Of a DNA stretch of 64,000 bases, positions 20,106 through 39,370 are shown in pieces. Origin of the DNA: a virus. The translations under genes and the position numbers were made by a program. The notes beneath the pieces were generated by a model that was given only the letters and a program-made list of their open reading frames with translations, did not search any database and was not told where the DNA came from. Each line of letters opens with the position of its first letter. Positions within the stretch are counted from its first letter, which is position 1. The stretch lies in the IMG/VR virus record IMGVR_UViG_3300020185_000011, one strand, 5' to 3'.

Positions 20106-20306
20106 ATGGGTATTAAAGTCGAAGGACAATCCAATCTTTATAGAGACGAAAGTTCTCATGCTATTATAAATACAGATGTAGAACAGTATAGATTACATAT
20201 GGTTAGGAAACAACGGTTTCTAGCACAAAGGAACGAGATAGACACACTTAAGAGTGAAGTATCAGAAATGAAAAGTATGCTTCAACAATTATTGGATAGG
20301 ACGTAA
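20106..20306 (+). CDS. Small conserved T4-like hypothetical protein (coiled coil)
   Basis: KVEG..NLYRDESS.AIINTD plus C-terminal coiled coil; ATG at 20106 follows the VrlC stop. Confidence 0.7.
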   Translation: MGIKVEGQSNLYRDESSHAIINTDVEQYRLHMVRKQRFLAQRNEIDTLKSEVSEMKSMLQQLLDRT

Positions 20307-21916
20307 TGGCAAAAACAGTAGACACATACTCAACTATTGAAGAGTTTAGACAAAAGTACAATGAACTAGCAGTTAATGTTGGTGATATCTCTGGCCTAAG
20401 AACAGAGAATCAAGAAACAGTTATTGATGCTCTGAATAGTTTAGAAGATAAATCATTCTTCTTCCAAGAGTTAATCTACACATGTACCAGTGGACAAACA
20501 GAATTTGGTTTGGGTACATCAATGCAAGTTGATGATTTTAACAACACACTTAGATTAAGAAAGGATAGATTCCAAGTATTCAAAAATTCTACTCTATTAT
20601 TAGAGGGTGCTGATTATTCTATATCTGCTGTTACTGGAAACATTTATTTCAAACTATCTCTAACAAGTGGTGCAACAGCAGGTGATAAACTTGTTGTCTA
20701 CTCATTCACAGGTTCATACTTAGGAACATCTACAATTGGTGCTCAATCAATTGGGTTCTTTACAGAGACAGCTGCAAATACAATTTATAATAACAACGAT
20801 AGTGGTGTTATTATCAATGGTAATTATGCAGATGCAGCCAACAGGGTAACAGCTCTTAGTGGTGGAAACACAATTGCAATGTATGGTCAAACTTTGCATG
20901 ATGGAAACTTTACAGTAGACACTGGACATACAATCACTGCACCAACCTTTACCGATTCAACAGCAACGATTACAGGCGGTGTGGGTACAGGTTTTAGTGC
21001 TATCACCTCAACAATATTTAACGGTAACCTAAGTGGTACGACTGCAGTTCTAACTTCAACAGTTCAAGCTGGTGGAGACATTACTTCATCTACAGACATA
21101 ATTGCTGGAAGTGAATTCGTAATCGGAAGTGCAAGAATAGATGAAACAGATTTAGAAAAAATCGATGACCTAACAAACGGAACTGTAATTGCTAGTAAAG
21201 CAGTTGCAGTAGATTCAAATAAAGATATTGGTGGATTCAGAAACATTACTGCAACAGCAGATATTACTGCTGGTAGTGAATTCATAATCGGAAGTGCAAG
21301 AGTAAATGAGACTGAACTAGAGATACTAGACGGTGCAACTTTAACCACTACAGAGATTAACTATCTTGACGGAACTACACTAGGAAGTGTTACTGCTAGT
21401 AACGTAGTTGCAGTTGATTCATCAAAAGATATCAGTGGATTTAGAAACATTACTGCAACTGGAGAGATAGAAGGTGGTTCACTTGATATCAACGGAAATG
21501 CAGACATTAGTGGTACCGTTTCCTTTGGTGGGGATGTTGACATTGATGGTGACTTAACATTCAATGGTACAACTTTCCAAGAATACGCACAAGACAGAGT
21601 TAAAGGATTACTAGACCACAATGGTCACTCAAACATAACTGCATCATATGAAGATTCAAATGATAAAATTATTCTTACTGCAGCTCCTCAATATGGGGAT
21701 AATGATGTTGCAGACTTAACAGTTGGCGGTACAGGTATTACCGAAACATACACTGGAGATGGAAACAGTTTGACATTCTCTACAGACCCAGGCGATGGAT
21801 TGAAAAATTCAGGCAGTGGAGTATCAGACAAAATTATGTTGGATTATGAAATAGTGTCAAACGCACCCACTTCCGTAGGGAGTACCGATGTTGGACACTT
21901 ATGGTTTGTGATATGA
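20306..21916 (+). CDS. Fibre/structural protein 1 (candidate carrier of zipper pair A/B)
   Basis: T.EEFRQKYN N-terminus, duplicated internal unit (..VAVDS.KDI.GFRNITAT..), ends APTSVGSTDVGHLWFVI. Confidence 0.6.
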   Translation: MAKTVDTYSTIEEFRQKYNELAVNVGDISGLRTENQETVIDALNSLEDKSFFFQELIYTCTSGQTEFGLGTSMQVDDFNNTLRLRKDRFQVFKNSTLLLEGADYSISAVTGNIYFKLSLTSGATAGDKLVVYSFTGSYLGTSTIGAQSIGFFTETAANTIYNNNDSGVIINGNYADAANRVTALSGGNTIAMYGQTLHDGNFTVDTGHTITAPTFTDSTATITGGVGTGFSAITSTIFNGNLSGTTAVLTSTVQAGGDITSSTDIIAGSEFVIGSARIDETDLEKIDDLTNGTVIASKAVAVDSNKDIGGFRNITATADITAGSEFIIGSARVNETELEILDGATLTTTEINYLDGTTLGSVTASNVVAVDSSKDISGFRNITATGEIEGGSLDINGNADISGTVSFGGDVDIDGDLTFNGTTFQEYAQDRVKGLLDHNGHSNITASYEDSNDKIILTAAPQYGDNDVADLTVGGTGITETYTGDGNSLTFSTDPGDGLKNSGSGVSDKIMLDYEIVSNAPTSVGSTDVGHLWFVI

Positions 21917-21917
21917 T

Positions 21918-23636
21918 ATGTCTGAAGAAACTTTTGTAAATATAGCAACGGAGATACAGCAACCTTACATTGCTCGTGTTCCTGTAAATGCTCAACAACC
22001 AAACATTAGACAGGTTGCTGTACAGTCACCAGCACAAGCACGTCAACCATCAACATACCAATACAGGTCTCCATTCATATACAATACTCCTGTAAGCGCA
22101 CAGCAACCTAACGTTAGGGATGCACGTCAACCTTTCACTTATACAAGACAAGGTCAGACCCCAACAACTTATCAGCATAGAAGTCCATTCACATATGCAA
22201 GACAAGGTCAACAACCAGCAATATATCAACATCAACAACCATACCCATATATTGCAGTAGCACAACAACCAAATGGTAGGGATGCACAACAACCTTATCC
22301 ATATATTGCACAAGCAAGACAGCCTGGATTCTATCAGCACCCTAGTCCATTTACATATCAAAATCCTGTAAATGCACAAGAACCAAATATTAGAGATGCA
22401 CAGCAACCGTATCCATACATTGCAGCTGGACAACAACCTACTATTAAGAATCAACAAGAACCTAATATACGTAATAGTCAAACACCATTCACATATAGAA
22501 ACCCAGTGAATGCACAAGAACCTAATATTAGAGATGCAAGACAGCCTGCTACATATCAGCATCAGTCTCCACTTACTTACAACTTTAGGTCTCCATTCAC
22601 GTATCAACATAGGTCACCATTCACATATAGAAATCCTGTAAGCGCACAAGAACCTAATATTAGAAACGCAAGACAGCCTGCTGAATATCAGCATCAGTCT
22701 CCATTCACTTATCAGAATCCTAGTAATGGTCAAGAGCCTAATATACGTAATAGTCAGACACCATTCACATATCAGAATCCAGTGAATGGACAACAACCTA
22801 ATATTAGAAGTGCCCAGCAACCGTATCCATACATTGCAAATTCACAAACACCATTTACGTATCAATATAGAAGTCCATTCACATATGCAAGGCAAGGACG
22901 AACACCATTTACTTATGCTGTGCAAACACCAGCAAATACATCTTCACAACAACCTTTGATTGCTCAGAGACCTTACATATTTGATGGTATCGATGGGGAT
23001 GATTCGAATCCAGCACCAACTACAACTTGGGGCCCAGGCGCTCAAGCTCAATATACTGTGGGTTCTCCTGCTTTTCCAATCTCTACAAATAGAGCATGGG
23101 ATAAGGCTGTTAGTTCTTTCGGTACTACGGCTAATAGTGCTACAGCATTTTTTAGATTCACTTATGGTGGAACAACATCAGCTGATGTTGATGTAGAATG
23201 GGCGGGAACTTTCCAACCAGCCACCAAGTTCTTCCCTGTATACGAAGATACTATAAACCATCATTCCCCAAGTGGAATTGACAGTACGTGGTCATGGGAA
23301 GCAAAATGGAATTCTACTGGAGACTCCAACTTGAACGAGCTGGGTATCAGTTTTGCTCCTCATCAATGGAGCACTTCTACAGGTAGTTACAAAGCAAAAG
23401 ATACATATTATAATATATGGAATGGGTCTTCTACGTCAAATTTGGTAGAATTCAAATGGAGAGCATCTGTGGGTAATCAGGGCGAATCAGAAGCATCGGT
23501 ACAGAGTACAGGTGTCGTATTTACCGTAAAAGTATCCAAGACAGGACAAACATCATTATACACTAGTTATAGTGCTGGGACAGTTAGACCAAGCGCATTC
23601 AACACTGGTGGCGGTGGTGGTGGAGGCTTCCAGTAA
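21918..23636 (+). CDS. Repeat protein A: Pro-punctuated 6/8/10-aa units plus ~220-aa C-terminal globular domain
   Basis: 44 units over aa 16-351; non-repetitive W/S/T-rich C-terminus ending GGGGGGFQ. Confidence 0.85.
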   Translation: MSEETFVNIATEIQQPYIARVPVNAQQPNIRQVAVQSPAQARQPSTYQYRSPFIYNTPVSAQQPNVRDARQPFTYTRQGQTPTTYQHRSPFTYARQGQQPAIYQHQQPYPYIAVAQQPNGRDAQQPYPYIAQARQPGFYQHPSPFTYQNPVNAQEPNIRDAQQPYPYIAAGQQPTIKNQQEPNIRNSQTPFTYRNPVNAQEPNIRDARQPATYQHQSPLTYNFRSPFTYQHRSPFTYRNPVSAQEPNIRNARQPAEYQHQSPFTYQNPSNGQEPNIRNSQTPFTYQNPVNGQQPNIRSAQQPYPYIANSQTPFTYQYRSPFTYARQGRTPFTYAVQTPANTSSQQPLIAQRPYIFDGIDGDDSNPAPTTTWGPGAQAQYTVGSPAFPISTNRAWDKAVSSFGTTANSATAFFRFTYGGTTSADVDVEWAGTFQPATKFFPVYEDTINHHSPSGIDSTWSWEAKWNSTGDSNLNELGISFAPHQWSTSTGSYKAKDTYYNIWNGSSTSNLVEFKWRASVGNQGESEASVQSTGVVFTVKVSKTGQTSLYTSYSAGTVRPSAFNTGGGGGGGFQ

Positions 23637-24661
23637 TGGCAACAGGACAACAACCATACGCATATCGTAACCCTATAATTGTAGGATATAGGATGCCTTC
23701 TATTGAGAACGCACAACAACCGTATCCATACATTGCAAATGCACAACAACCAAACATAAGGGATGCAAGACAGCCAGGAACATATGCAAGACAAGGGCAA
23801 ACGCCTTTTACTTATCAGCACCAGTCTCCATTCACTTACAGGAATCCTAGTAATGCACGTCAACCTGCTACATATCAGCATCAGTCTCCATTCACTTACA
23901 GAAACCCTGTAAATGGTCAAGAACCTAATATACGTAATAGTCAGACACCATTTACTTACAACTTTAGGTCTCCATTCACATATAGAAGTCCAGTGAATGC
24001 TCAAGAACCTAATATTAGAAACATACAACAACCTAATATTAGAAATCAGCAAGAGCCTAATATACGTAACAGTCAGACACCATTTACTTACAACTTTAGG
24101 TCTCCATCCACTTACAGGAATCCTAGTAATGCAAGGCAACCAGCGACTTATCAACATAGGTCACCACTTACATATAACCATAGGTCACCGTTTACCTATG
24201 CAAGACAGGCAATAAGACAAGTATCATATCAGCATCAATCACCGTATACGTATCGTAATCCTTCTAATGCACAAACAAATGTTGTTAAGGAAAGTCAGAC
24301 TCCATTCACATATGCTAGACAAGGTCAAACACCGTTTACGTATCAATATAGAAGTCCATTCACATATCAGAGAACAGGACGAACACCAGTGAATGCCAAT
24401 ACGGATATACAATATCCTTATATTGCAAGTGGTCAAGAGCCTAACATTAGAAACAGACAATTACCGTATCCATATATTGCAGCGGGTCAGACACCGTTTA
24501 CATATCAGCATAGGTCACCTTTCACTTATCAGAATCCAGTGCAAGGTCAAGAGCCTAATATTAGAAATTCACAAACACCGTTCTTCTATAATGCTGGTAG
24601 TCAAGTATCATATCAACACAGAAGTCCGTTCACATATCAAGTCACTTACAATACTACTAGG
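21963..24661 (+). repeat. Coding repeat arrays of A (21963-22970) and B (23654-24661)
   Basis: 18/24/30-nt units encoding PFTY.., PNIR.., PYPYIA.. and PVxAQE. Confidence 0.9.
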
Positions 24662-24805
24662 GTCATACCTAGATATGCAAGGGTCAAAGGTGTGTTCATA
24701 AATGACAATGGAACTTTAAGGAAATTAGACGAAGTTCACGTAAATGACAACGGAACGGCAAGAAAAATACACCAATCTGTACCAACTGCTCAGTATCAAA
24801 CTTAA
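23636..24805 (+). CDS. Repeat protein B (mirror partner of A)
   Basis: TAATG coupling to A; ~44 units over aa 7-342; C-terminal VKGVFINDNG..K..VHVNDNG..K segment. Confidence 0.85.
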   Translation: MATGQQPYAYRNPIIVGYRMPSIENAQQPYPYIANAQQPNIRDARQPGTYARQGQTPFTYQHQSPFTYRNPSNARQPATYQHQSPFTYRNPVNGQEPNIRNSQTPFTYNFRSPFTYRSPVNAQEPNIRNIQQPNIRNQQEPNIRNSQTPFTYNFRSPSTYRNPSNARQPATYQHRSPLTYNHRSPFTYARQAIRQVSYQHQSPYTYRNPSNAQTNVVKESQTPFTYARQGQTPFTYQYRSPFTYQRTGRTPVNANTDIQYPYIASGQEPNIRNRQLPYPYIAAGQTPFTYQHRSPFTYQNPVQGQEPNIRNSQTPFFYNAGSQVSYQHRSPFTYQVTYNTTRVIPRYARVKGVFINDNGTLRKLDEVHVNDNGTARKIHQSVPTAQYQT

Positions 24806-29431: not shown

Positions 29432-29650
29432 ATGGCAACACAAAATACATTCGTAATAGAATACGGTCTGACAGTTGGGTCGACAGAGATTATTTCCTCA
29501 GCAGGAAAATTAGCTGCGACTGCAATATCATTACTTACTTCAGATAACCTCACAGAAGGTTCAACTAATCAATACTTTACTTCAAGTAGATTTAACTCTT
29601 CATTCGATACTAGATTATCAAATGCAGTTATTGATGGGGGTACTATCTAA
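29432..29650 (+). CDS. Small fibre-associated protein ending IDGGTI
   Basis: AGGA RBS; D.L.EGSTN.YFT motif; paralogous to the N-terminus of the next gene. Confidence 0.6.
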   Translation: MATQNTFVIEYGLTVGSTEIISSAGKLAATAISLLTSDNLTEGSTNQYFTSSRFNSSFDTRLSNAVIDGGTI

Positions 29651-31977
29651 TGGCAGGTGAAAAGAATTTTATACTTAAGAACGGTCTATCCGTAGGAACA
29701 AACGATGTTCTAGATAGTTCGGGTGACTTAGTAGCAGCTGCATTCGGAACTGCAGCTCTAGAGGTCATCGATGACCAAGTCAATACCTTACTAACAGCAG
29801 GAACAGGTGTATCATTATCATATGACGACTCTGCTGGAACACTTACAATCAACGGACAACAAGGTGATATCACTGGAGTTAATGCTGGTGCTGGTTTAAC
29901 TGGTACTGCAAGTTCGGGTGATGCAACATTAAACATCGGTGCTGGTACAGGTATTACTGTAAATGCAGATGACATTGCAATCGACCTTAAAGACGAAGAC
30001 GATATGTCTTCGAACAGTGCATCTCACGCTGCATCACAACAATCAATTAAAGCTTATGTTGATGCAAGTATTCTAACAAAAGACAACACAGACGAAATCA
30101 CAGAAGGGTCAAGTAACCTTTACTTTACAGATGCAAGAGCAAGAGCTGCTCTATCAGCAACTGGTGATATATCATACAATAGTTCAACTGGTGTATTCAG
30201 TTTCACAAACGATGCTGGTGACATCGAATCAGTAGTTGCTGGTTCGGGTTTAACTGGTGGTGCAACAAGTGGAGCTGCAACATTAAACATTGGTGGTGGA
30301 ACAGGTATCTCAGTAGCTGCAGATGCAATCTCAGTAAACATGGGTGCATTTGATTCAGATGACTTAGGTGAAGGGACAACCAATCTCTATCATACTTCAG
30401 AAAGAGTTCAAGATGTAGTTGGTGCTCAATTAGCAACTAACGGTTCACACACTGGTCTTACAGCAACTTACGATGATGCTGGTGACGGTGCAGTTGACCT
30501 TGCAGTATCTTCAGAGTATATTGCAGATACAGTTGGTGCAATGGTATCATCAAATACAGAAAGTGGTATTACAGTTGCTTACCAAGATGCAGATAACACT
30601 TTAGACTTTACAATTGGAACACTTAACCAAGATACAACAGGATTAGCAGGAACTGCTACTGCACTTGCAAATGCAAGAACTATCTCGGGTGTTTCCTTTG
30701 ACGGTACAGCAAACATCACACTAAACACTAGTGGAATTACAGAAAATACAAACCTTTACTATACAAACGAAAGAGTAGATGACAGAGTTGGTGCATTAAT
30801 TGTTGGTGGTACAAACATCACTGCAACCTATGATGATGCAGCTGGAACACTTACAATTGACGGAAACGCAGCGGACATCACAGGTGTTACAGCAGGTGAC
30901 GGTCTAAGTGGTGGTGGTTCAACTGGTGCAGTTACCTTAAACCTAGACGCATCAGTCGCTGGTGACGGTCTTGCACATTCAAGTGGTGTTCTGTCAGTCG
31001 GAGTAGACGATAGTTCAATCGAAACAAATACAGATGCATTAAGAGTCAAAGCACTTGGTATTACTAATGCCATGTTAGCAGGTTCTATTGCAAACGCAAA
31101 ATTATCAAACAGCACAATAACAGTTGATGGTCAATCAGTTGCATTGGGTGGTTCGGTCACAACAACTAACACTCAACTATCTACAGAACAAGTAGAAGAC
31201 ATCGTAAATGGATTAGTAGTTGGTGGAACAAACATCACTTCTACATATGATGATGCAGCTGGAACACTTACACTTGCTGGTTCATCAGATGCAGATATCA
31301 GAGGTTTATTATCTGCTGGTGGAGATTTATCATACAACAGTGGAACTGGTGCATTCTCATTCACAGAGAGAACAGATGCAGAAGTAAGAGGTCTAGTATC
31401 AGTAACAGACAGTGGTGGAGATGGTTCACTTTCATATAATAGTTCAACTGGTGCAATAACTTACACAGGGCCAAGTGCATCTGAGACAAGAGCTCATTTA
31501 AGTGCTGGAACTGGTGTATCATATAGTGGTGGTGCATTCAGTATTGGTCAGGCAGTTGCAACTTCAAGTAACGTAACGTTTGGAAACTTAACATTAAGTG
31601 GTAACCTAACAGTTAATGGTGCCACTTCAACAGTAAGTTCAACTAACACAACCATCGAAGATTCTTTGATTGAGTTAGGAACAGGGACAACTGGTGCTCC
31701 AGCTGGAGACGCAGGTATTGTCATTGAAAGAGGTGATGAAAGTAACGTGTTTATGGGTTGGGACGACAGTGCATCAAGTTTTGCATTCGGAACAACTACT
31801 GCAACAGGTTCTTCAACTGGTGCTTTATCAGTAACACCAGCAGCGGTATCTACAGGTGCATTAACAATAACGAATGCATCTAACAGTGGTGGAACTGCAA
31901 GAAATGTTTACCAATCAACTTCTGCACCTGGCGGTTCAGATGGAGCGGTTGGTGATATGTGGATTCTTTACTCCTAA
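29650..31977 (+). CDS. Tail-fibre-like protein 2 (candidate carrier of zipper pair C/D)
   Basis: Repeated TYDDAAGTLT, EGSSNLYFT..R and ISYNSSTG units; ends APGGSDGAVGDMWILYS. Confidence 0.7.
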   Translation: MAGEKNFILKNGLSVGTNDVLDSSGDLVAAAFGTAALEVIDDQVNTLLTAGTGVSLSYDDSAGTLTINGQQGDITGVNAGAGLTGTASSGDATLNIGAGTGITVNADDIAIDLKDEDDMSSNSASHAASQQSIKAYVDASILTKDNTDEITEGSSNLYFTDARARAALSATGDISYNSSTGVFSFTNDAGDIESVVAGSGLTGGATSGAATLNIGGGTGISVAADAISVNMGAFDSDDLGEGTTNLYHTSERVQDVVGAQLATNGSHTGLTATYDDAGDGAVDLAVSSEYIADTVGAMVSSNTESGITVAYQDADNTLDFTIGTLNQDTTGLAGTATALANARTISGVSFDGTANITLNTSGITENTNLYYTNERVDDRVGALIVGGTNITATYDDAAGTLTIDGNAADITGVTAGDGLSGGGSTGAVTLNLDASVAGDGLAHSSGVLSVGVDDSSIETNTDALRVKALGITNAMLAGSIANAKLSNSTITVDGQSVALGGSVTTTNTQLSTEQVEDIVNGLVVGGTNITSTYDDAAGTLTLAGSSDADIRGLLSAGGDLSYNSGTGAFSFTERTDAEVRGLVSVTDSGGDGSLSYNSSTGAITYTGPSASETRAHLSAGTGVSYSGGAFSIGQAVATSSNVTFGNLTLSGNLTVNGATSTVSSTNTTIEDSLIELGTGTTGAPAGDAGIVIERGDESNVFMGWDDSASSFAFGTTTATGSSTGALSVTPAAVSTGALTITNASNSGGTARNVYQSTSAPGGSDGAVGDMWILYS

Positions 31978-32028: not shown

Positions 32029-33459
32029 ATGGCAACAGGTTCACAAAAGGTCAAAACACCAGCAGGTTGGAATTCAACCCAAGGTGCATGGGTAAAGACA
32101 GGTTCTTCCACATGGAAAGCAGTCGACCAAATCTATATTAAAACCCCTACTGGATGGAACAATGCATCAGGGCAGACTGCAACTCAAATTCCATATCCGT
32201 ACATTGCAAATGGACAACAGCCAAACATAAGGGATGCTCAACAACCATATCCATACATTGCAAATGCACAACAACCAAACATAAGAGATGCACAGCAACC
32301 GTATCCATATATTGCTAATGCACAAGAACCAAACATAAGGGATGCACAGCAACCATATCCTTATATAGCGAATGCAAGACAACCTTCTACGTACCAACAT
32401 AGGAGTCCGTTTACATATGCAAGACAGGGACAAACACCGTTCACTTATCAACATAGGTCTCCATTTACATATAGAAACCCAGTAAATGGTCAAGAACCTA
32501 ATATACGTAATAGTCAAACACCTTTCACTTATAGAAATCCAGTGAATGGACAAGAGCCTAATATTAGAGATGCACGTCAACCTTCTACGTATCAGCATAG
32601 AAGTCCATTTACGTACAATCATAGGTCACCATTTACGTACAGTCATAGGTCTCCATTCACATATAGAAGTCCAGTGAATGCTCAAGAACCGAACATTAGA
32701 GATGCAAGACAACCTGCTACGTATCAACATAGGTCACCGTTAACATATAGTCATAGGTCTCCGTTTACATATCAGCACAGGTCTCCATTTACATATAGAA
32801 GTCCTGTAAGCGCACAGGAACCTAATATTAGAAATGCACGTCAACCTGCTACGTATCAGCACAGGTCACCTTTAACATATAGTCACAGGTCACCATTCAC
32901 GTATCAACATAGGTCACCATTTACATATAGAAGTCCTGTATCTGCTCAAGAACCTAATATACGTAATGCAAGACAACCTTCTACGTATCAACATAGAAGT
33001 CCGTTAACATATAGTCATAGGTCACCATATACATACAGTCATAGGTCTCCGTTCACTTACAGAAACCCTGTATCTGCTCAACAACCTAATATACGTTCGG
33101 CACAACAACCTAATATACGTTCGGCACAACAACCGTTTACGTTCCAAAATCCGTTTACTTATCGACAACCAAGTAATGCTAGACAACCGAATAATGCAAG
33201 GAACCCATTTACGTATAGAGTACCGTATATTGCAAATGCTAGACAACCGAATAGTGCAAGGAACCCATTCACTTATAGAGTACCTTACATTGCTAATGCA
33301 AGACAACCGAATAGTGCAAGAAGCCCATTCACTTATAGAGTACCTTACATTGCTAATGCAAGGCAACCTGTTATTTCTCAGTCACCGTTTACATATAGTC
33401 ATAGGTCACCATTCAACTACTACTTTACTGGGGGTGGTGGCAACTTCTGTGAGCCATAA
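32029..33459 (+). CDS. Repeat protein C
   Basis: N-terminal VKT..GW..WVKTG..WK..IYIKT..GW segment; 55 Pro-started units over aa 55-460; ends GGGGNFCEP. Confidence 0.85.
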   Translation: MATGSQKVKTPAGWNSTQGAWVKTGSSTWKAVDQIYIKTPTGWNNASGQTATQIPYPYIANGQQPNIRDAQQPYPYIANAQQPNIRDAQQPYPYIANAQEPNIRDAQQPYPYIANARQPSTYQHRSPFTYARQGQTPFTYQHRSPFTYRNPVNGQEPNIRNSQTPFTYRNPVNGQEPNIRDARQPSTYQHRSPFTYNHRSPFTYSHRSPFTYRSPVNAQEPNIRDARQPATYQHRSPLTYSHRSPFTYQHRSPFTYRSPVSAQEPNIRNARQPATYQHRSPLTYSHRSPFTYQHRSPFTYRSPVSAQEPNIRNARQPSTYQHRSPLTYSHRSPYTYSHRSPFTYRNPVSAQQPNIRSAQQPNIRSAQQPFTFQNPFTYRQPSNARQPNNARNPFTYRVPYIANARQPNSARNPFTYRVPYIANARQPNSARSPFTYRVPYIANARQPVISQSPFTYSHRSPFNYYFTGGGGNFCEP

Positions 33460-34752
33460 GCCGATGAAAAACATGACAAGAAATAATATTAAACTAACAG
33501 GAGTTTTAAAGTGCCTATAGGTAATAGACAACAACCTACTATTAAGAACGCACAGCAACCTGTCGCGTCTCAGAATCCGTTCACATATGCAAACAGATAT
33601 CCAGCGAGTGCTCAACAACCTTTTACGTTCCAAGCACCATTTACATATAGTGCAAGATATCCAGCGAGTGCTCAACAACCTTTTACGTTCCAAGCACCAT
33701 TTACATATAGTGCAAGATATCCAGCGAATGGACAGCAACCGTTTACGTTTCAGAATCCGTTTACTTACAGACACCCTATGTCTGCGAGACAACCTAACAA
33801 CGCAAGGAATCCATTTACATACAGTTATAGGTCTCCATTTACGTACAACTATAGGTCACCATTTACATATAGAAGTCCTGTAAATGGTCAAGAACCTAAT
33901 ATACGTTCTGCACAAGAGCCTAATATTAGAAGTCAACAAGAACCTAATATACGTTCTGCACAGACTCCGTTCACTTATCAATATAGAAGTCCGTTCACTT
34001 ATAGAAACCCTGTATCTGCTCAAGAACCTAATATTAGAAACATACAGCAACCTAACATTAGAAGTCAGCAAGAACCTAATATACGTAATAGTCAAACACC
34101 GTTCACTTATCAGCACAGGTCTCCTTTCACTTATAGGAACCCTGTATCTGCACAAGAACCGAACATTAGAGCTGCACAACAACCTAATATTAGAAGTCAA
34201 CAAGAACCTAATATTAGAAACAGTCAAACACCGTTTACGTACAATCACAGGTCTCCATCTACATATAGGAACCCTGTATCTGCTCAAGAACCTAATATAC
34301 GTTCTGCTCAAGAACCTAATATACGTTCTGCACAAGAGCCTAACATTAGGGATGCTCAGACTCCGTTCACTTATCAATATAGAAGTCCGTTCACTTATCA
34401 GAATCCTAGTAATGCACGTCAACCTGCTACATATCAGTACAGGTCACCGTTCACTTATCAGAATCCAGTAAGCGCACAGGAACCTAATATTAGAAATGCA
34501 CAGCAACCGTATCCATACATTGCAGCTGCTCAAGAACCTAATATACGTAATGCACAGACTCCGTTTACTTATCAGAGAACAGGTCAAACACCGTTCACTT
34601 ATCAGCACAGGTCTCCATTCACGTATGCAAGACAGGGTCAAACACCGTTTACGTATCAACATAGAAGTCCGTTCACATATCAAAGAACAGGTCAAACACC
34701 GTTTACGTATCAACACAGAAGTCCATTCACATATGCAAGACAGGGTCAAACC
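32191..34752 (+). repeat. Coding repeat arrays of C (32191-33408) and D (33535-34752)
   Basis: Same unit alphabet; each array is 1218 nt; includes an exact 60-nt tandem at 33601-33720. Confidence 0.9.
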
Positions 34753-34815
34753 CCCGAAGCAAGATGGGATGGAGTGGTATCACAACAGTGGCCTGCAACC
34801 CCAATTACATCATAG
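33511..34815 (+). CDS. Repeat protein D (mirror partner of C)
   Basis: AGGAG RBS with GTG start; 55 units over aa 9-414. Confidence 0.85.
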   Translation: MPIGNRQQPTIKNAQQPVASQNPFTYANRYPASAQQPFTFQAPFTYSARYPASAQQPFTFQAPFTYSARYPANGQQPFTFQNPFTYRHPMSARQPNNARNPFTYSYRSPFTYNYRSPFTYRSPVNGQEPNIRSAQEPNIRSQQEPNIRSAQTPFTYQYRSPFTYRNPVSAQEPNIRNIQQPNIRSQQEPNIRNSQTPFTYQHRSPFTYRNPVSAQEPNIRAAQQPNIRSQQEPNIRNSQTPFTYNHRSPSTYRNPVSAQEPNIRSAQEPNIRSAQEPNIRDAQTPFTYQYRSPFTYQNPSNARQPATYQYRSPFTYQNPVSAQEPNIRNAQQPYPYIAAAQEPNIRNAQTPFTYQRTGQTPFTYQHRSPFTYARQGQTPFTYQHRSPFTYQRTGQTPFTYQHRSPFTYARQGQTPEARWDGVVSQQWPATPITS

Positions 34816-34835
34816 GAACTTACCCGACAGTGAAC

Positions 34836-34862
34836 AAACCCCTCGAAAGAGGGGTTTTTTTT
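34836..34862 (+). terminator. Rho-independent terminator after repeat protein D
   Basis: AAACCCCTC-GAAA-GAGGGGTTT followed by a T tract. Confidence 0.85.
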
Positions 34863-34879
34863 ATCCTCTAAATACCAGT

Positions 34880-36460
34880 ATGAAAAATATAAGCACCCTT
34901 GAAGAAGCAAAAGAGTTAATTATCCCACAAGATTGGGACAAACTAAGAGACCAAGATAGAAGACACATTGGTAATTTCCATCTAGGTTCATTTAATATAG
35001 AACCAGGCTTTAGTAAAACTAGTGAAACATATAAAATTCTAGACTGGTTATTCAAAGAGATTCTTCCACCTGTAAAAATTGCAAAGTGGTCAGACTTTGA
35101 ATACCTAAGAAAGGAAAATAGATTTGGTGGGTTCAATGGTTTGAGAAATGAATCAGTAACCTATCACAAGTTCCTACCAAGAGGTTATGCAGAGAAACCT
35201 AGAAAGGTTATCCCAGGCGTAGCAGGTATGGATATGAAAGATGCTGATGGATATGTCGATATAGACACATTAATCGATTGGGATACCGTTGAAAATAGAG
35301 ACCAAAGTGCAGAAGGGTCATTACTATCGATGTATTATCATGGTGCAAAAGCACATTGGTTAATTCAAAGTATTCAAGAGGAAGGTCTTAGAGCTCCTAT
35401 TCAAGGATATGTTATCAGTCATGGTATTACTGGTAATAATGTAGAACCAACTTATACATTTAGAATACATCCAGGCTCTATTAGGAGTGGTGTGTTTGAA
35501 GAATTGAATGATAATGATATGGAAATTATGGTAATAGATAATTTTGATGTCGTGAAAGTTGAACCATCAAGCCTAGACGATGTGTTAGAAATGTGGTATA
35601 ATAAGTTAACGAGATTAGGTAAAGCATATCATTGTTCATTTACGTATGTTGATGGATGTATTGAATACAATACTGCATTGATGGACTTAGATTTCAGAGA
35701 AGAAGTACATGCATTCAACAAACAAGTCTTTGAACTTGCAAAGGGTAAACCCCTAACAATTTATATTGGACATGATAGTAGGCATGGAGATTTGTCTAAG
35801 TGTTCTAAGTTTGCAATCCTAGAAAGTATTAAAAGTGGATTCGGTAAAGGCTGGATGCACGACCAAGTTAAATGGGAACCCGAAGTCAAGATACTTGACA
35901 TTGCTGAGATTCCCGAGTATACTAGAGAGTATGCTAATCAAAGTACTGAATTTACATACAGTAGATTTCTAATACCTTACCTAGAGAACTATGAAGGGTT
36001 TAGTATCTTCATTGATGATGATTTCATCTTCAACAAAAGCATACTACCTATGTTCTACTATCTAAACCCAAACGATGCTGTTGCATGTATTAAATACCCA
36101 CAATACGAACATGATGCAACCAAGTTTGACGGTGAAGTTAATATCGATTATCCAAAGAAGCTGTGGTCTAGTATGATGGTGTTCAACAACGGACATGAAG
36201 ACTGTAAGAAGTTAACACCCGAAGTTGTCAACACATGGACAGGAAAACAGTTACATCAATTCGAATGGACTGATAAGATTTCACCTATACCCGAACACTA
36301 TATCTTTGTGGAAGGGTATGATAATCACGAAGAAAAGTATAATTATAGTGGTATTCACTATACTCGTGGTGGCCCATGGGTAAAAGGCATGGATTATTCT
36401 ACCATAAATAATCTTGAAGACTTTTTAAAAGTGAAAAGAAAGTTGCCAATTGGCGATTAG
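34880..36460 (+). CDS. Glycosyltransferase (C-terminal GT-A, CDI-like) fused to an uncharacterised N-terminal domain
   Basis: IYIGHDSR, QSTEFTYSRFLIPYL..YEG.SIFIDDDF (DxD), WSSMMVFN, IHYTRGGPW. Start reassigned to ATG 34880, after the terminator and late promoter. Confidence 0.8.
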   Translation: MKNISTLEEAKELIIPQDWDKLRDQDRRHIGNFHLGSFNIEPGFSKTSETYKILDWLFKEILPPVKIAKWSDFEYLRKENRFGGFNGLRNESVTYHKFLPRGYAEKPRKVIPGVAGMDMKDADGYVDIDTLIDWDTVENRDQSAEGSLLSMYYHGAKAHWLIQSIQEEGLRAPIQGYVISHGITGNNVEPTYTFRIHPGSIRSGVFEELNDNDMEIMVIDNFDVVKVEPSSLDDVLEMWYNKLTRLGKAYHCSFTYVDGCIEYNTALMDLDFREEVHAFNKQVFELAKGKPLTIYIGHDSRHGDLSKCSKFAILESIKSGFGKGWMHDQVKWEPEVKILDIAEIPEYTREYANQSTEFTYSRFLIPYLENYEGFSIFIDDDFIFNKSILPMFYYLNPNDAVACIKYPQYEHDATKFDGEVNIDYPKKLWSSMMVFNNGHEDCKKLTPEVVNTWTGKQLHQFEWTDKISPIPEHYIFVEGYDNHEEKYNYSGIHYTRGGPWVKGMDYSTINNLEDFLKVKRKLPIGD

Positions 36461-36471
36461 TATGTTATAAT
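36443..36471 (+). promoter_or_regulatory. Sigma70-type promoter
   Basis: TTGCCA-17 nt-TATAAT with extended TG. Confidence 0.65.
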
Positions 36472-36491
36472 AGTAACGAGGAACTATAATT

Positions 36492-37049
36492 ATGAATGCA
36501 TTTATATACGACAGTGATGGTACAATTTTTGTCCGTAAACCAAACGGACTGGAATACAACTATGAGAATGTCGACAAACCTGCTTTTGATTTTGAATATG
36601 ATGTTGTCATCTATGATGATATCGAAGTAAAGATTGAGAAGTGGGAAGACGGTCTAAACTTTGACCAACAACAAAAAGTTGCACTTTCAAGAGAAGAGTG
36701 TGAAATTATTGAACAATACATTGAGAATAGTGAACCACCTATGGGTCATAGTCTCAATAGTCAAATCGTTGACAGTCTCTATAGAACTACAGATAAATAT
36801 GTTGACGAAGAGTGTAGACAATACAGATTCAAAGACTTGAATGAAGCAATGTATGCTGGTAGAGAAGGTTCATCCCATCCCCATAGAAACAATGCAAGAA
36901 GAGCTCTTGAATATGCAGACGCAATCAATTGTGTTCTTGCACAACTTGTAGACGAAGTCCAACAAACTAGAGAAGATTTCTTAAAGGACTATGACGCTTA
37001 TCAGAGTGAACTACCAAGTCCATACGTACCCGAAGATACCAGAGCTTAA
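36492..37049 (+). CDS. Hypothetical protein (possibly tail-fibre-assembly-like)
   Basis: GAGG RBS; acidic 185-aa ORF; only weak remembered resemblance of the C-terminal helices to fibre chaperones. Confidence 0.5.
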   Translation: MNAFIYDSDGTIFVRKPNGLEYNYENVDKPAFDFEYDVVIYDDIEVKIEKWEDGLNFDQQQKVALSREECEIIEQYIENSEPPMGHSLNSQIVDSLYRTTDKYVDEECRQYRFKDLNEAMYAGREGSSHPHRNNARRALEYADAINCVLAQLVDEVQQTREDFLKDYDAYQSELPSPYVPEDTRA

Positions 37050-37052
37050 GTA

Positions 37053-37757
37053 ATGTTCGAAAATGTTGAGTTAGAGTTCATCAAGGAACCCTTTCATATC
37101 AAAGATATGCCTTTGAAAAATATGTATATCCTTGATGACTATCTATCTCCAACATTACATCATGCAATAGACGAACAGATAGTTCGAAAGTCTTACTGGG
37201 CAAAGACCAACCAAGTGAATTCAAACTCACCTACAGGATTACCGCACCATAGTTTTTGGGGTGCTGGGTTTTTCAGAGGAGAGAATCAAGAAATAGAACA
37301 CGGTATGGAACCTAAAGACACATACTTAATGGGATGGTTCAATAGAAAGCTACAAACTGATTTTGGTTTTATGTGGGAAAGGTTTCAATACTTTGGATTG
37401 AACTCACAAACTCAAGGATTGGAAGGAACCACACATTCAGATTGTGATATGGAAGATGATTGGAATCTATCATTCTTATATTATCCAAATAGATTTTGGA
37501 ATGATTCATGGGGTGGGTCTTTACGATTGTATGATGAACCACAACAAGGAATCCATGGAAGAGCAGACCACATTAAAAATCATCAAACACAAGAAATATA
37601 TTTTAAACCAAATAGATTGTTGATATTTGACGGAAGAATACCACATGGTGCAGATGCACCATCTCCAAAGGCACGATATATGGATAGACGTTCTTTGGTA
37701 ATAAGAGGAGACGAAATTAGTATAAGAACTTTATGGGGTGAAGATGCCTACGATTGA
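37053..37757 (+). CDS. 2OG-Fe(II) oxygenase (prolyl-hydroxylase-like)
   Basis: HSD ... LYYPN..W...WGG.L ... KPNRLLIFDGRIPH...P.....R.SL. Confidence 0.85.
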   Translation: MFENVELEFIKEPFHIKDMPLKNMYILDDYLSPTLHHAIDEQIVRKSYWAKTNQVNSNSPTGLPHHSFWGAGFFRGENQEIEHGMEPKDTYLMGWFNRKLQTDFGFMWERFQYFGLNSQTQGLEGTTHSDCDMEDDWNLSFLYYPNRFWNDSWGGSLRLYDEPQQGIHGRADHIKNHQTQEIYFKPNRLLIFDGRIPHGADAPSPKARYMDRRSLVIRGDEISIRTLWGEDAYD

Positions 37758-38670
37758 ATTCACAACTTACGATAAGAGAACCACAGAGTTATGGAGACCT
37801 GTTTTAGCTAAAAAGGTTGTTCCCGATTGGTGGAAGACCATGAAAGTTCAAGAGATGGTTCGTGGGAATAAGACTCAAACTATTAGGTCATGTCCAGCAA
37901 TGGACGACTGGTTAAAGAGTGGTTGGTACATATGTGCAAAAACAGATATGCAAGTAAAGGTAAATGAAGACGGTAGGTCAATGACAGACCCAAACAATCC
38001 CCTTCATTCTCCAACTCATCCAGCTGCACAAGGTGGTCATAACTTTACCTACCTACCCAAAGAGGATGCACCCACTAAAGATGCATTTAAAATGAGAGCT
38101 CCTTGGAATATTATTACACCACCAGGCTATTCATGTCTATATCTAGACCCCTTTCTATTTCAGAATACTCATTTTGCAACATGGCAGGGAATCATCGATA
38201 CAGATACATTCAATGTGAATATGGATAATTCTCAGATTATATTCTATCCTAAAACGAATAAGGACTTTGTAATCAAAGAGGGTACACCACTAGTACAGGT
38301 CGTTCCTTACAGAAGAGAAGTGTGGAATGCATCCTATATAACTTATGATAATAAATCATGGCAAGAGAATCGTTCTGTAAGAACTACACATAGAGTAGGA
38401 GAGGACGGTGAGAAACTCAAGACCATGGACGAATGGAATAGGTCACCCGAACTCAGAGAAGAGAAGAGACACATAGAAGGAATGGCTGGTGCATACAGAA
38501 GAATTAAATATTGGAATGAAAAGGGAAGGATGTTCAAAGAAGATAATCCACCACCCGAATGTCCTATGCACAACCCCGATGTAAATGACGAGGTAGAGAT
38601 GGAAAGGGATTATAAAAAAGAACAATTGAAACAAACTGATTTGAATTGGGATGGTCAAGATGACAGTTAG
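37744..38670 (+). CDS. Conserved hypothetical (DUF6065-like), often next to 2OG oxygenases
   Basis: TIRSCPAM.D.L..G, PW.I.TPPGYSCL, GIIDTD, GTPLVQVVPY.R. Confidence 0.55.
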   Translation: MPTIEFTTYDKRTTELWRPVLAKKVVPDWWKTMKVQEMVRGNKTQTIRSCPAMDDWLKSGWYICAKTDMQVKVNEDGRSMTDPNNPLHSPTHPAAQGGHNFTYLPKEDAPTKDAFKMRAPWNIITPPGYSCLYLDPFLFQNTHFATWQGIIDTDTFNVNMDNSQIIFYPKTNKDFVIKEGTPLVQVVPYRREVWNASYITYDNKSWQENRSVRTTHRVGEDGEKLKTMDEWNRSPELREEKRHIEGMAGAYRRIKYWNEKGRMFKEDNPPPECPMHNPDVNDEVEMERDYKKEQLKQTDLNWDGQDDS

Positions 38671-39370
38671 ATTAGCATTCCCTACTGCTATATTTGAAAG
38701 AGATTTACTTGACAAAGAAAAGTATGGTAACGATGCTGTTACAATTGAATACATCGATTCTCTTAGAAATGAAATGGATGCATGGAGACAAAGAGACCCG
38801 AAGGGAAGGCAGATTTCAAATAGATATACTGGTTGGCAGTCGGAAGATGGTATAGAACAACATCCAAGTTTTGCAAAGATTATAAGATGTATTGAAGCTG
38901 CATTGAGAGAAGAGGTGCAGACATTCTTTGGAGTAAATCCAAATGCAGCCCAAATTAAAATAGACAACACATGGGCAAACATAAATGATAAAGGTGCGTG
39001 GAACACACCACACTTACATAATGGTTGTTGGTATAGTGGAGTATGTTATATACATGGTGACGGTGACGAGGGAGACCTCAATATGATTAATACCGATGCT
39101 AAAGTAGTTGCAGACCACCCATCTTTGCAACGACACCAAGAGAGTATTCAGTACCAACCTAAAACTGGAAGACTCATATTGTTTCCTAGTGGTGCAATGC
39201 ATATGGTAGAACCCAATCCCACAGACAAAGATAGATACTCAATCTCTTTCAATTGTAGAGTACAATACATTGGTAATCCCTCAGATGCAAGAAAACCGTG
39301 GAGAAACCCACCGCCTGAAGATGAATTTACTTTTGAATTAGATTCAAATGGCGACCCCATAATCAACTAG
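38660..39370 (+). CDS. 2OG-Fe(II) oxygenase, TIGR02466-like
   Basis: FPTAI, WANIN..G.WN.PHLH, SGVCY, G.LILFPS...H.VEPN....RYSISFN. Confidence 0.85.
   Translation: MTVRLAFPTAIFERDLLDKEKYGNDAVTIEYIDSLRNEMDAWRQRDPKGRQISNRYTGWQSEDGIEQHPSFAKIIRCIEAALREEVQTFFGVNPNAAQIKIDNTWANINDKGAWNTPHLHNGCWYSGVCYIHGDGDEGDLNMINTDAKVVADHPSLQRHQESIQYQPKTGRLILFPSGAMHMVEPNPTDKDRYSISFNCRVQYIGNPSDARKPWRNPPPEDEFTFELDSNGDPIIN

What the first reader, a model, noticed from the sequence alone, without database searches (positions are those of the whole stretch)
32029..34815. Two adjacent proteins (C and D) are protein-level 'reverse complements': a sequence-encoded antiparallel zipper
Seen: cutting both translations at each unit-initial Pro gives 55 units each. 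Both arrays total exactly 406 aa (5x10, 28x8, 22x6). C read N->C is 10,8,10,8,10,8,10,8,10,8,6,6,8,6,6,8,8,8,8,6,6,... and D read C->N gives the same length series at all 55 positions. The aligned units are complementary rather than identical. P[FSALY]TYxxRS faces PNIRxxxx; PFTYARQGQT/PFTYQRTGQT faces PYPYIAxxxx; PFTYR[NS] faces PV[SN][AG]QE; PFTFQx faces PN[NS]ARx; PYIANARQ faces PFTYxxRY. In 54 of 55 pairs an aromatic xT[YF] unit faces a non-TY unit, the exception being near the end. Both chains use both unit classes, as DNA strands use all bases. Inference: C and D form an in-register antiparallel two-chain beta-ribbon fibre, about 135-140 nm if extended. I know of no described fibre built on such a pairing code.
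Basis: partly seen in the sequence, partly recalled or inferred. Interest (0 to 1): 0.97.

Follow-up and report, generated by a model that had tools for sequence, protein, structure and literature searches.

The report
Mirror-complementary phage fibre protein pair
Two neighbouring genes of an uncultured marine T4-like phage encode repeat proteins whose units, read in opposite directions, match in length and are of opposite type; over 40 related gene pairs follow the same rule, which points to a long two-protein antiparallel fibre held in register by a pairing code with no described precedent that I could find.

Summary
C (32029-33459) and D (33511-34815) each hold 55 Pro-initiated units totalling 406 aa. 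C read N->C equals D read C->N in unit length at 55/55 positions. A TY unit faces a non-TY unit at 54/55. There is no DNA inverted repeat, and codon-position statistics show both frames are real genes.

In 42 non-redundant adjacent pairs (40 from IMG/VR contigs, plus A/B and C/D of this window), the cognate partner scores highest or ties for highest for 38. Opposite class holds in 1485 of 1591 unit pairs. A 44-aa block occurs 2, 3, 4 or 5 times in relatives, the same number in both partners. TY content of one chain predicts non-TY content of the other (r=0.96).

Pro-Pro spacings are even in 3866/3870 cases, a beta-strand period. Covariation within facing units runs antiparallel. Cross pairs (A-D, C-B) score at background.

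No Pfam, PHROG or PDB family, cultured-phage homologue or paper was found. Binding, stoichiometry and fold are inferred; structure predictions gave no answer. The scan holds only first-reader notes on this same genome, none on other DNA.

The parts
32029..33459 (+). Gene C (X-type chain), 476 aa
   Evidence: ORF. Differences from relatives fall mainly at third codon positions (19/24/125), so the frame is coding. More than 443 metagenomic homologues were found.
32029..32190 (+). C N-terminal cap, aa 1-54. Trp-rich and non-repeat, conserved across the X family. In the antiparallel register it lies beside the C-terminal tail of D.
   Evidence: Conserved N-terminus in all X proteins printed. tblastn matches start at residue 1 in nearly all loci.
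32191..33408 (+). C repeat array, aa 55-460: 55 Pro-initiated units of 6, 8 or 10 aa (406 aa)
   Evidence: The DNA tandem arrays are 54 nt x3.6, 132 nt x4.3 and 60 nt x3.2.
33409..33459 (+). C tail (aromatic residues, a Gly run, then ...EP) and TAA stop. This is the 'tip' end, which meets the N-terminus of D.
   Evidence: The YYF..GGGG..EP tail is conserved in close relatives; the Cys is not.
33460..33510 (+). 51-nt spacer with three in-frame TAA codons and an AGGAG ribosome-binding site (33499-33503) 7 nt before the GTG start of D
   Evidence: Spacer length and relative frame vary among loci, so these are two genes and not a read-through.
33511..34815 (+). Gene D (Y-type chain), 434 aa
   Evidence: ORF. 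Third-position bias of 27/27/86 against the relative. An adjacent same-strand partner of X is present in almost all of the 78 loci.
33535..34752 (+). D repeat array, aa 9-414: 55 units (406 aa). It is the mirror complement of the C array.
   Evidence: The DNA tandem arrays are 60 nt x2.6, 132 nt x3.7 and 54 nt x3.1, the same periods as in C but in reversed order.
34753..34815 (+). D C-terminal tail (P-x-x-RWDG-x-x-SQQWP...), conserved in the Y family. It faces the C cap.
   Evidence: The same tail ends every Y protein printed.
21918..23636 (+). Gene A, 572 aa. First chain of a second, independent pair: array at about aa 16-350, then an all-beta C-terminal domain of about 228 aa.
   Evidence: A-B Pro coincidence is 39/45, against A-D 25/60. 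32 of 34 classifiable unit pairs are of opposite class. Unit strings.
23636..24805 (+). Gene B, 389 aa, the mirror-complement partner of A
   Evidence: The register holds even where B has lost unit-initial Pro residues.
29650..31977 (+). Upstream fibre-like structural gene (775 aa). Context only; membership in the system is not shown.
   Evidence: Hits to phrog_697 structural protein and phrog_1833 tail fiber protein. Found upstream of X in 76 of 78 loci.
34901..37757 (+). Conserved downstream genes: a GT8-like glycosyltransferase, a 185-aa ORF and a 2OG-Fe(II) oxygenase. Context only; any modification role is speculative.
   Evidence: Pfam Glyco_transf_8 at 19 bits, below cut-off, and 2OG-FeII_Oxy_3 at 35 bits, above cut-off. 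Present in 77, 76 and 46 of 78 loci.

Best explanation
C and D are two structural proteins of a marine T4-like myovirus. They are encoded in its tail-fibre and baseplate gene region. The proposal is that they associate side by side, antiparallel and in one unique register, to form a long heteromeric beta-ribbon fibre.

Each chain is a continuous extended strand. A Pro occurs every 6, 8 or 10 residues, always an even number, so every Pro lies on the same edge or face of the strand. In the inferred register (C residue i opposite D residue 470-i), Pro faces Pro. That is the only parity that keeps the Pro residues of both chains off the inter-chain hydrogen-bonding positions.

Between two Pro-Pro pairs, an aromatic 'TY' unit (P-x-T-Y/F...) always faces a non-aromatic unit of the same length (PNIR.. 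or PYIA.. 8-mers, PYPYIA.. 10-mers, PV/N.A/GQ/R. 6-mers). The recurrent cross-strand pairs are Y:A or Y:G, F:Q or F:E, H:R, R:I, T:Q and S:N.

The order of unit lengths and classes acts as a barcode. Only the cognate partner, at one offset, satisfies all pairs. This fixes the register of an otherwise low-complexity repeat. It also keeps the two pairs of the same phage, A/B and C/D, from cross-pairing.

The conserved end (C N-terminal cap plus D C-terminal tail) is probably the attachment end. The variable end (C C-terminus plus D N-terminus) is probably distal; in relatives it carries a globular or Hint-like domain.

Shown: the mirror, the complement, and their conservation and covariation. 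Inferred: direct contact, beta geometry, stoichiometry, and a fibre on the virion.
For: 1. Exact mirror and complement in the window: 55/55 lengths and 54/55 classes. The Pro coincidence score is about 12 SD above the unit-order shuffles.

2. Homologous pairs. In 42 non-redundant adjacent X/Y pairs, one gapless antiparallel offset aligns on average 86% of the Pro residues, against 50% for non-cognate partners. The cognate partner scores highest, or ties for highest, for 38 of 42.

3. Opposite class holds in 1485 of 1591 unit pairs, or 93%. The main pairings are PNIR8|TY8 (542), TY6|other6 (497), PYPYIA10|TY10 (186) and PYIA8|TY8 (177).

4. Written as unit strings, X equals the reverse complement of Y, apart from a few units and unparsed positions, in 13 displayed pairs with very different orders. 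The 44-aa block is present 2, 3, 4 or 5 times in close relatives, the same number in both genes. Array lengths of X and Y correlate at r=0.85.

5. Parity of composition. TY units in X against non-TY units in Y give r=0.96; TY in X against TY in Y gives r=-0.03. The TY fraction of X ranges from 0.10 to 0.80 and is anticorrelated with that of Y at r=-0.885.

6. Pro-Pro spacings are even in 3866 of 3870 cases. This two-residue period is that of a beta-strand, not of PPII or alpha.

7. Covariation within facing 8-mers, counting unique unit pairs only: TY position 2 couples with partner positions 6 and 8 (z 41, 28). Positions 6 and 8 couple with partner positions 2 and 4 (z 30-41). Same-end couplings have z<6. 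This is the pattern of antiparallel neighbours on one face.

8. It is not a DNA artefact. There is no inverted repeat, and both genes have the same strand skew. The C and D blocks also differ in composition: 3 TY8 + 1 PNIR8 against 1 TY8 + 3 PNIR8.

9. The frames are real genes: third-position substitutions dominate, and D has a ribosome-binding site.

10. Context: the pair lies between baseplate-wedge genes and the terminase, sheath and portal genes, directly after a tail-fibre-like gene, in conserved synteny.

11. Orthogonality within the window: A-D scores 25/60 and C-B 23/45, both at background, against A-B 39/45 and C-D 56/60.
Against: There is no experimental or structural evidence of binding. 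Stoichiometry is unknown, and phage fibres are usually trimers.

A free two-stranded ribbon of about 400 residues has no solved precedent, and its stability is uncertain.

Mutual information is also high at neighbouring even shifts: 1.64 at shift -2 against 1.41 at shift 0. The exact residue register is therefore not fixed by the sequence data alone.

A few pairs (L007, L009, L015, L041) differ by whole 44- or 88-aa blocks between partners. This is either short-read assembly collapse or evidence that mismatches are tolerated.

The covariation counts are not corrected for shared descent beyond removing identical unit pairs.

Presence in the virion has not been tested; no cultured phage with this family was found.
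Confidence: 0.62

Rival explanations
1. The antiparallel X-Y contact is real, but the assembled object is a higher-order bundle or sheet, for example three X/Y ribbons around a three-fold axis like other phage fibres. It would not be an isolated two-chain ribbon.
For: The established rule that phage tail fibres are trimers. The neighbouring fibre-like genes hit phrog_697 and phrog_1833. One face of the TY units is aromatic (F, Y, H at even positions) and could pack against other ribbons.
Against: With even spacing, every Pro lies on one edge, which would hinder lateral sheet growth. Both faces are largely polar and there is almost no aliphatic core: I+V+L is about 6-8%. The sequence carries no three-fold signal.
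Confidence: 0.22
2. X and Y do not touch each other. Both lie in opposite directions along a third periodic scaffold, for example the upstream fibre protein, and the mirror reflects shared spacing on that scaffold.
For: A fibre-like gene precedes both pairs, at 20306-21916 before A/B and at 29650-31977 before C/D. The latter is conserved upstream of X in 76 of 78 loci.
Against: A shared scaffold explains equal lengths. It does not explain opposite unit classes (93%), the composition parity, or the antiparallel residue-level covariation between facing units. Array length varies about two-fold among relatives, but the length of the upstream gene in those relatives was not measured.
Confidence: 0.06
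3. The proteins are extended or disordered Pro-rich substrates for modification (hydroxylation, glycosylation, cross-linking), like extensins. On this view the mirror has no structural meaning.
For: A GT8-like gene and a 2OG-Fe(II) oxygenase of the prolyl-hydroxylase-type Pfam family lie just downstream, in conserved synteny. C and D give weak Pfam hits to Cementoin, a transglutaminase-substrate repeat. Fold predictors gave low confidence.
Against: Disorder cannot explain a mirror, a complement and compensated copy numbers conserved over 42 pairs. It also cannot explain strictly even Pro spacing. Modification and pairing are not mutually exclusive. Synteny in a conserved phage module is weak evidence of a functional link.
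Confidence: 0.06
4. The mirror is a by-product of a DNA-level process, such as inverted duplication, antisense coding or gene conversion between the two genes.
For: Both genes are built from tandem DNA repeats of the same periods (54, 132 and 60 nt) in reversed order.
Against: There is no inverted repeat between the genes. Both have C>G on the same strand. The reverse complement of Pro codons cannot give Pro-initiated units without GG in every unit. The facing blocks have different unit composition, so they are not copies of each other. Unequal crossing-over in one gene cannot by itself change the other, yet copy numbers match.
Confidence: 0.02

Closest known systems
Streptococcal antigen I/II (SpaP/SspB) stalk, where the Ala-rich repeats and the Pro-rich repeats of one chain fold back and intertwine (own knowledge: Larson et al., PNAS 2010)
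   Same: A long fibrillar stalk is built by the antiparallel association of two different repeat arrays. Their repeat numbers must match, and the two arrays lie in mirrored positions around a distal domain.
   Different: There it is one chain, an alpha-helix wound with a PPII helix, and only 3-4 long repeats. Here there are two genes and both chains mix both unit classes. The units are 6-10 aa with a strict two-residue (beta) period, there are 30-70 units, and there is no sequence similarity.
Heterodimeric coiled-coil zippers (Fos/Jun type, SMC/Rad50 antiparallel coiled coils)
   Same: Partner choice and register are encoded by a periodic pattern of complementary residues along two chains. Orthogonal pairs can coexist in one cell.
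   Different: Here there are no heptads, Pro is 14% of the array, and the period is 2 rather than 3.5. The code works at two levels, unit length and unit class, which coiled coils lack.
Perutz polar zippers and two-stranded antiparallel beta-ribbons; single-layer beta-sheets such as OspA (own knowledge)
   Same: Gln/Asn-rich extended strands are paired antiparallel, exposed to solvent on both faces, and stabilised by cross-strand side-chain pairs.
   Different: The known examples are short or intramolecular and carry no partner-specific code. Here the proposal is about 400 residues per chain, between two different proteins.
Trimeric phage fibre folds: T4 gp5C and gp12 triple beta-helix (8-residue VxGxxxxx repeats), adenovirus triple beta-spiral, T4 gp34-37
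   Same: A phage fibre context, short beta repeats that include octapeptides, and a conserved N-terminal attachment end with a variable distal end.
   Different: Those are parallel homotrimers of one gene with a uniform repeat length. Here there are two complementary genes in antiparallel order with mixed 6/8/10 units. There is no hit to any fibre Pfam, PHROG or PDB family.
Collagen and extensin-type Pro-rich structural proteins with dedicated prolyl hydroxylase and glycosyltransferase
   Same: Pro-rich repeats, Tyr-rich sequence, and neighbouring 2OG oxygenase and glycosyltransferase genes.
   Different: There is no G-X-Y or SPPPP motif. Pro spacing is even rather than in threes. Modification was not tested.

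Membership tests
Known phage tail-fibre or fibre-shaft families (Pfam, PHROGs, PDB) | Significant sequence match to a curated fibre family or to a solved fibre structure | tested here: not met
   C and D have no PHROG family and no Pfam family except weak Cementoin repeat hits. phmmer against PDB gave nothing below E=0.45. tblastn against 50,697 cultured-phage records gave only two low-identity repeat matches, in Pseudomonas and Vibrio phages. The N-terminal cap gave none.
Collagen-like triple helix | Gly at every third residue (G-X-Y) with a period of 3 | tested here: not met
   Gly is 1.0-1.5% of the arrays. Pro-Pro spacings are 6, 8 or 10 and are even in 3866 of 3870 cases.
Coiled-coil zipper | Heptad periodicity and helix-compatible composition | tested here: not met
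   Pro is 14% of the array and recurs every 6-10 residues. The aliphatic content is very low.
Triple beta-helix of the T4 gp5C type | A uniform octapeptide VxGxxxxx repeat in a single gene forming a parallel homotrimer | tested here: not met
   The units are mixed 6, 8 and 10 aa, start with Pro and lack the V-x-G motif. Two complementary genes lie in mirrored order. The trimeric state itself cannot be tested here.
Hint/intein-bearing autoprocessing proteins | A Hint domain with an N-terminal Cys/Ser nucleophile and a C-terminal His-Asn | tested here: not met
   The window's C ends 16 aa after the array and has no Hint domain. Some X homologues (L017, L018, L025, L037) carry a C-terminal domain that hits Intein_splicing/Hint at 24-31 bits, below the 35.8 cut-off; in the L018 protein it starts G|CF and ends HN. 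The Cys in the tail of C is not conserved.
Cementoin (trappin transglutaminase-substrate repeat, PF10511) | Score above the gathering threshold with at least one domain that passes on its own | tested here: inconclusive
   D scores 29.5 bits against a cut-off of 27, but no stretch passes on its own. C scores 21.6 bits, below the cut-off. This most likely reflects the composition of Q-rich hexapeptides.
Proposed new class: mirror-complementary X/Y fibre pair | Adjacent same-strand genes, Pro-initiated even-length units, X unit string equal to the reverse complement of the Y unit string, and conserved X N-terminal cap and Y C-terminal RWDG..SQQWP tail | tested here: met
   C/D meets all of these features. 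A/B meets the mirror and complement features but has different end domains.

The most novel reading that the evidence does not exclude
This is a natural protein-protein pairing code analogous to nucleic-acid complementarity. Two polypeptides form an antiparallel beta-duplex several hundred residues long, and a 'sequence' of units specifies both partner and register. There are three unit lengths and two classes, and each unit pairs only with the opposite class of equal length. The code evolves by compensated expansion and contraction, and it supports several orthogonal duplexes in one virion. If this is true, it is a new architectural principle for fibrous proteins and a ready-made, programmable design rule for hetero-specific beta-sheet assemblies.
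Probability: 0.5. Interest if true: 0.95.

Novelty: categorically new. Interest (0 to 1): 0.9.

Why it matters
Fibrous proteins that fix partner and register through a readable code are so far essentially limited to coiled coils and collagen. An antiparallel beta-duplex with a two-level code (unit length and unit class) would be a third principle.

It would explain how a low-complexity repeat fibre of more than 100 nm avoids slipping. It would also explain how two such fibres, A/B and C/D, assemble without cross-pairing in the same infected cell.

The family is abundant in marine metagenomes: more than 443 homologues and 217 confirmed stretches in IMG/VR contigs. It is unnamed everywhere and was not found in the cultured phages searched. 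It is therefore likely to be a major unrecognised virion component of an uncultured lineage of ocean T4-like myoviruses.

The natural series of pairs with 30-70 units and compensated block numbers amounts to an evolutionary experiment on co-evolving repeat arrays. The rules can be tested directly with co-expressed fragments, and they would interest protein designers working on hetero-specific beta-sheet interfaces.

Tried and rejected
1. DNA-level origin of the mirror. The inverted-repeat search found only a 14-nt chance match, and both genes share the same strand skew. Rejected.

2. Complex prediction on C 1-200 with D 270-434, the matched cap-end halves: 'no answer', score 0.00, partner pLDDT below 50, controls not run. 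This is no evidence either way.

3. AlphaFold2 without an alignment on the natural read-through of the hairpin tip (window 33133-33813, table 6, P0147). Mean pLDDT was 39 with no secondary structure. Uninformative.

4. Search for a fused single-chain X-Y form longer than 833 aa: none found, which is weak evidence. The relative frame of X and Y varies among loci, so read-through or a split gene is not supported.

5. C-terminal domain of A. Only 6 clusters were found among 1.84 billion representatives. The AF2 model with a 7-sequence alignment was all-beta with pLDDT 58. Foldseek against PDB gave nothing at E<=0.001, only weak pilin and lectin-like beta-sandwich rows. The fold stays unassigned.

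6. Names and relatives. Cluster look-up gave only 'hypothetical'. The ESM Atlas gave nothing at 0.9 or above. megablast of 12 kb of the window against cultured phages gave no match.

7. Literature. Four full-text searches, including the unit motifs as strings, found nothing relevant.

8. Mutual information was tried as a way to fix the exact residue register. It is high at several even shifts, so it cannot separate shift 0 from shift -2. The Pro-faces-Pro register rests on a hydrogen-bond parity argument, which is inference.

9. The own genome is not held. The nearest record, G001, is the L001 contig and adds no further pairs.
Full report
**What is there.** The window comes from a T4-like marine myovirus. 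It carries baseplate-wedge, tail-sheath, portal, scaffold and large-terminase genes. The portal is 56% identical to those of Methylophilales phage Melnitz and Pelagibacter phage Mosig, and 54-56% identical to those of cyanomyoviruses. No close cultured relative was found.

C (32029-33459, 476 aa) and D (33511-34815, 434 aa) are adjacent genes on the + strand, directly after a tail-fibre-like gene. D starts at a GTG with AGGAG 7 nt upstream, and relatives have ATG there. Compared with relatives, substitutions fall mainly at third codon positions (for example 19/24/125 for C), so these frames are coding. The long ORFs in other frames and on the other strand are by-products of the repeats.

**Check of the observation.**
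- 55 units per protein, 406 aa per array (5x10, 28x8, 22x6);
- the C length series equals reversed D at 55/55 positions, against 17/55 in parallel;
- a TY unit faces a non-TY unit at 54/55, with pair 54 the exception.

A test that needs no parsing counts Pro residues coinciding at one gapless antiparallel offset. It gives 56 of 60 at C+D=470, against 35 at the next best offset and 40 for the best parallel offset. 5000 shuffles of D's unit order give 19.9 +/- 2.9, with a maximum of 32.

**Not a DNA artefact.** No inverted repeat joins the genes, and both have C>G on the + strand. The arrays are tandem DNA repeats with the same three periods in reversed order: 54, 132 and 60 nt in C, and 60, 132 and 54 nt in D, with similar copy numbers. 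The facing 44-aa blocks differ in make-up, with three TY8 plus one PNIR8 in C against one TY8 plus three PNIR8 in D. They are not copies or antisense of each other. Because of the tandem structure, the 55 positions are not independent. The weight of evidence therefore has to come from other pairs.

**Other pairs.** The same window holds a second pair, A (21918-23636) and B (23636-24805). It follows the same rules but has a different unit order. A-B scores 39/45, and 32 of 34 classifiable unit pairs are of opposite class. The cross pairs A-D (25/60) and C-B (23/45) are at background.

C has more than 443 metagenomic homologues, none of them named. 78 IMG/VR loci were fetched, and nearly all have an adjacent X/Y pair on the same strand. 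The following results come from 42 non-redundant pairs:
- The best antiparallel offset aligns on average 86% of the Pro residues with the cognate partner, against 50% with non-cognate partners. The cognate scores highest, or ties for highest, for 38 of 42.
- Facing units are of opposite class in 1485 of 1591 cases.
- Written as strings of six unit types, X equals the reverse complement of Y, apart from a few units and unparsed positions, in pairs whose strings are otherwise quite different.
- Among close relatives the 44-aa block occurs 2 (L014), 3 (L011), 4 (this window) or 5 times (L001, L004), and the number is the same in both genes.
- Array lengths of X and Y correlate at r=0.85.
- Composition obeys a Chargaff-like parity. 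TY units in X predict non-TY units in Y (r=0.96) but not TY units in Y (r=-0.03). The TY fraction of X ranges from 0.10 to 0.80.

The mirror is present.

**Structural reading.** Pro-Pro spacings inside the arrays are even in 3866 of 3870 cases. This is the two-residue period of a beta-strand kept without a slip over hundreds of residues.

At the offset that maximises coincidence, Pro faces Pro. By inference from antiparallel-sheet geometry, this is the only parity that puts the Pro residues of both chains on non-hydrogen-bonded sites. The recurrent cross-strand pairs at that offset are Y:A, Y:G, F:Q, F:E, H:R, R:I, T:Q and S:N.

Within facing 8-mers, counting unique unit pairs only, position 2 of the TY unit covaries with partner positions 6 and 8. 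Positions 6 and 8 covary with partner positions 2 and 4 (z 28-41). Same-end couplings stay below z=6. This is the pattern expected for antiparallel neighbours on one face.

Mutual information alone does not separate shift 0 from shift -2, so the exact register remains an inference.

**Function.** The X N-terminal cap and the Y C-terminal tail are conserved across the family and meet at one end. The other end varies. It is a short Gly-rich tail in C, a globular extension in L032 and L063, and a sub-threshold Hint/intein-like domain after a poly-Gly G|CF site in L017, L018, L025 and L037.

A conserved end and a variable end is the usual layout of a phage fibre, with a proximal attachment and a distal tip. 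Together with the gene neighbourhood, this supports a virion fibre. That remains inference. If fully extended, 406 residues would span about 135-140 nm.

The GT8-like gene and the 2OG oxygenase downstream are syntenic in most loci. Their link to C and D is untested.

**What failed.** The complex prediction gave no verdict. The single-sequence AF2 run on the read-through tip was unstructured. The C-terminal domain of A has no recognisable fold. No fused form, PDB relative, cultured-phage homologue or paper was found.

**Verdict.** The best explanation is an antiparallel, register-coded hetero-duplex fibre (confidence 0.62). The main rival is a bundle of such ribbons (0.22). Binding, stoichiometry and fold need experiment. 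I rate it categorically new, interest 0.9.

Noticed in passing
L018:4001-6100 (also L017, L025, L037): Some X homologues carry a C-terminal domain of about 170 aa after a poly-Gly run. In L018 it starts G|CF, like the Hedgehog cleavage site, and all four end with HN. It hits Pfam Intein_splicing, Hint or Vint at 24-31 bits, below the cut-offs. In L018 the short tail after HN resembles the N-terminus of Y proteins in other loci. This may be autoprocessing or a covalent link at the tip of the duplex.
   Followed up: partly
L007, L009, L015, L041 (X/Y pairs): In these contigs one partner is longer than the other by one or two 44-aa blocks. For example, X of L007 fits Y of L008 better than its own Y. 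L014 and L015 share the same X but differ by one block in Y. These could be uncompensated evolutionary intermediates, recombinants, or short-read assembly collapse of the 132-nt tandem repeats.
   Followed up: partly
window 22950-23636 (C-terminal 228 aa of A): An all-beta domain with invariant Trp and Gly positions. It was found in only 6 clusters of 1.84 billion representatives, always at the end of a repeat-array protein. The AF2 model had pLDDT 58 and no significant PDB fold match. It is a candidate distal or receptor-binding domain.
   Followed up: yes
L031, L032, L053, L057, L062, L063, L071: In these relatives X has a globular C-terminal extension of 130-200 aa instead of the Gly-rich tail. 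X and Y are separated by about 280-530 nt, which may hold an extra small gene.
   Followed up: no
window 34901-39370: A GT8-like glycosyltransferase (19 bits, below cut-off), a 185-aa ORF and a 2OG-Fe(II) oxygenase of the prolyl-hydroxylase-type Pfam family (35 bits) follow D; further ORFs beyond them were not characterised. They are syntenic in 77, 76 and 46 of 78 loci. This may be a modification cassette for the Pro/Tyr/Ser/Thr-rich chains, or just conserved gene order.
   Followed up: partly
window 32167-32622(-), 33022-33366(-), 33856-34422(-), 33884-34471(+), 34496-34900(+): Long ORFs in other frames and on the opposite strand run across the arrays. The 5' extension of the glycosyltransferase ORF also overlaps D. 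All are stop-free by-products of the repeat composition, not genes. The substitution pattern supports only the C and D frames.
   Followed up: partly
window 33448-33450 (Cys474 of C): The single Cys in the tail of C, noted by first readers as a possible relic, is Tyr or Phe at the same place in close relatives (L008, L011, L014). It is not a conserved feature.
   Followed up: yes
window 20306-21916 and 29650-31977: Each mirror pair is preceded by a fibre-like gene that ends in a similar short hydrophobic motif (..G-H-L-W-F-V-I and ..G-D-M-W-I-L-Y-S). This could be a shared docking element for the following pair.
   Followed up: no
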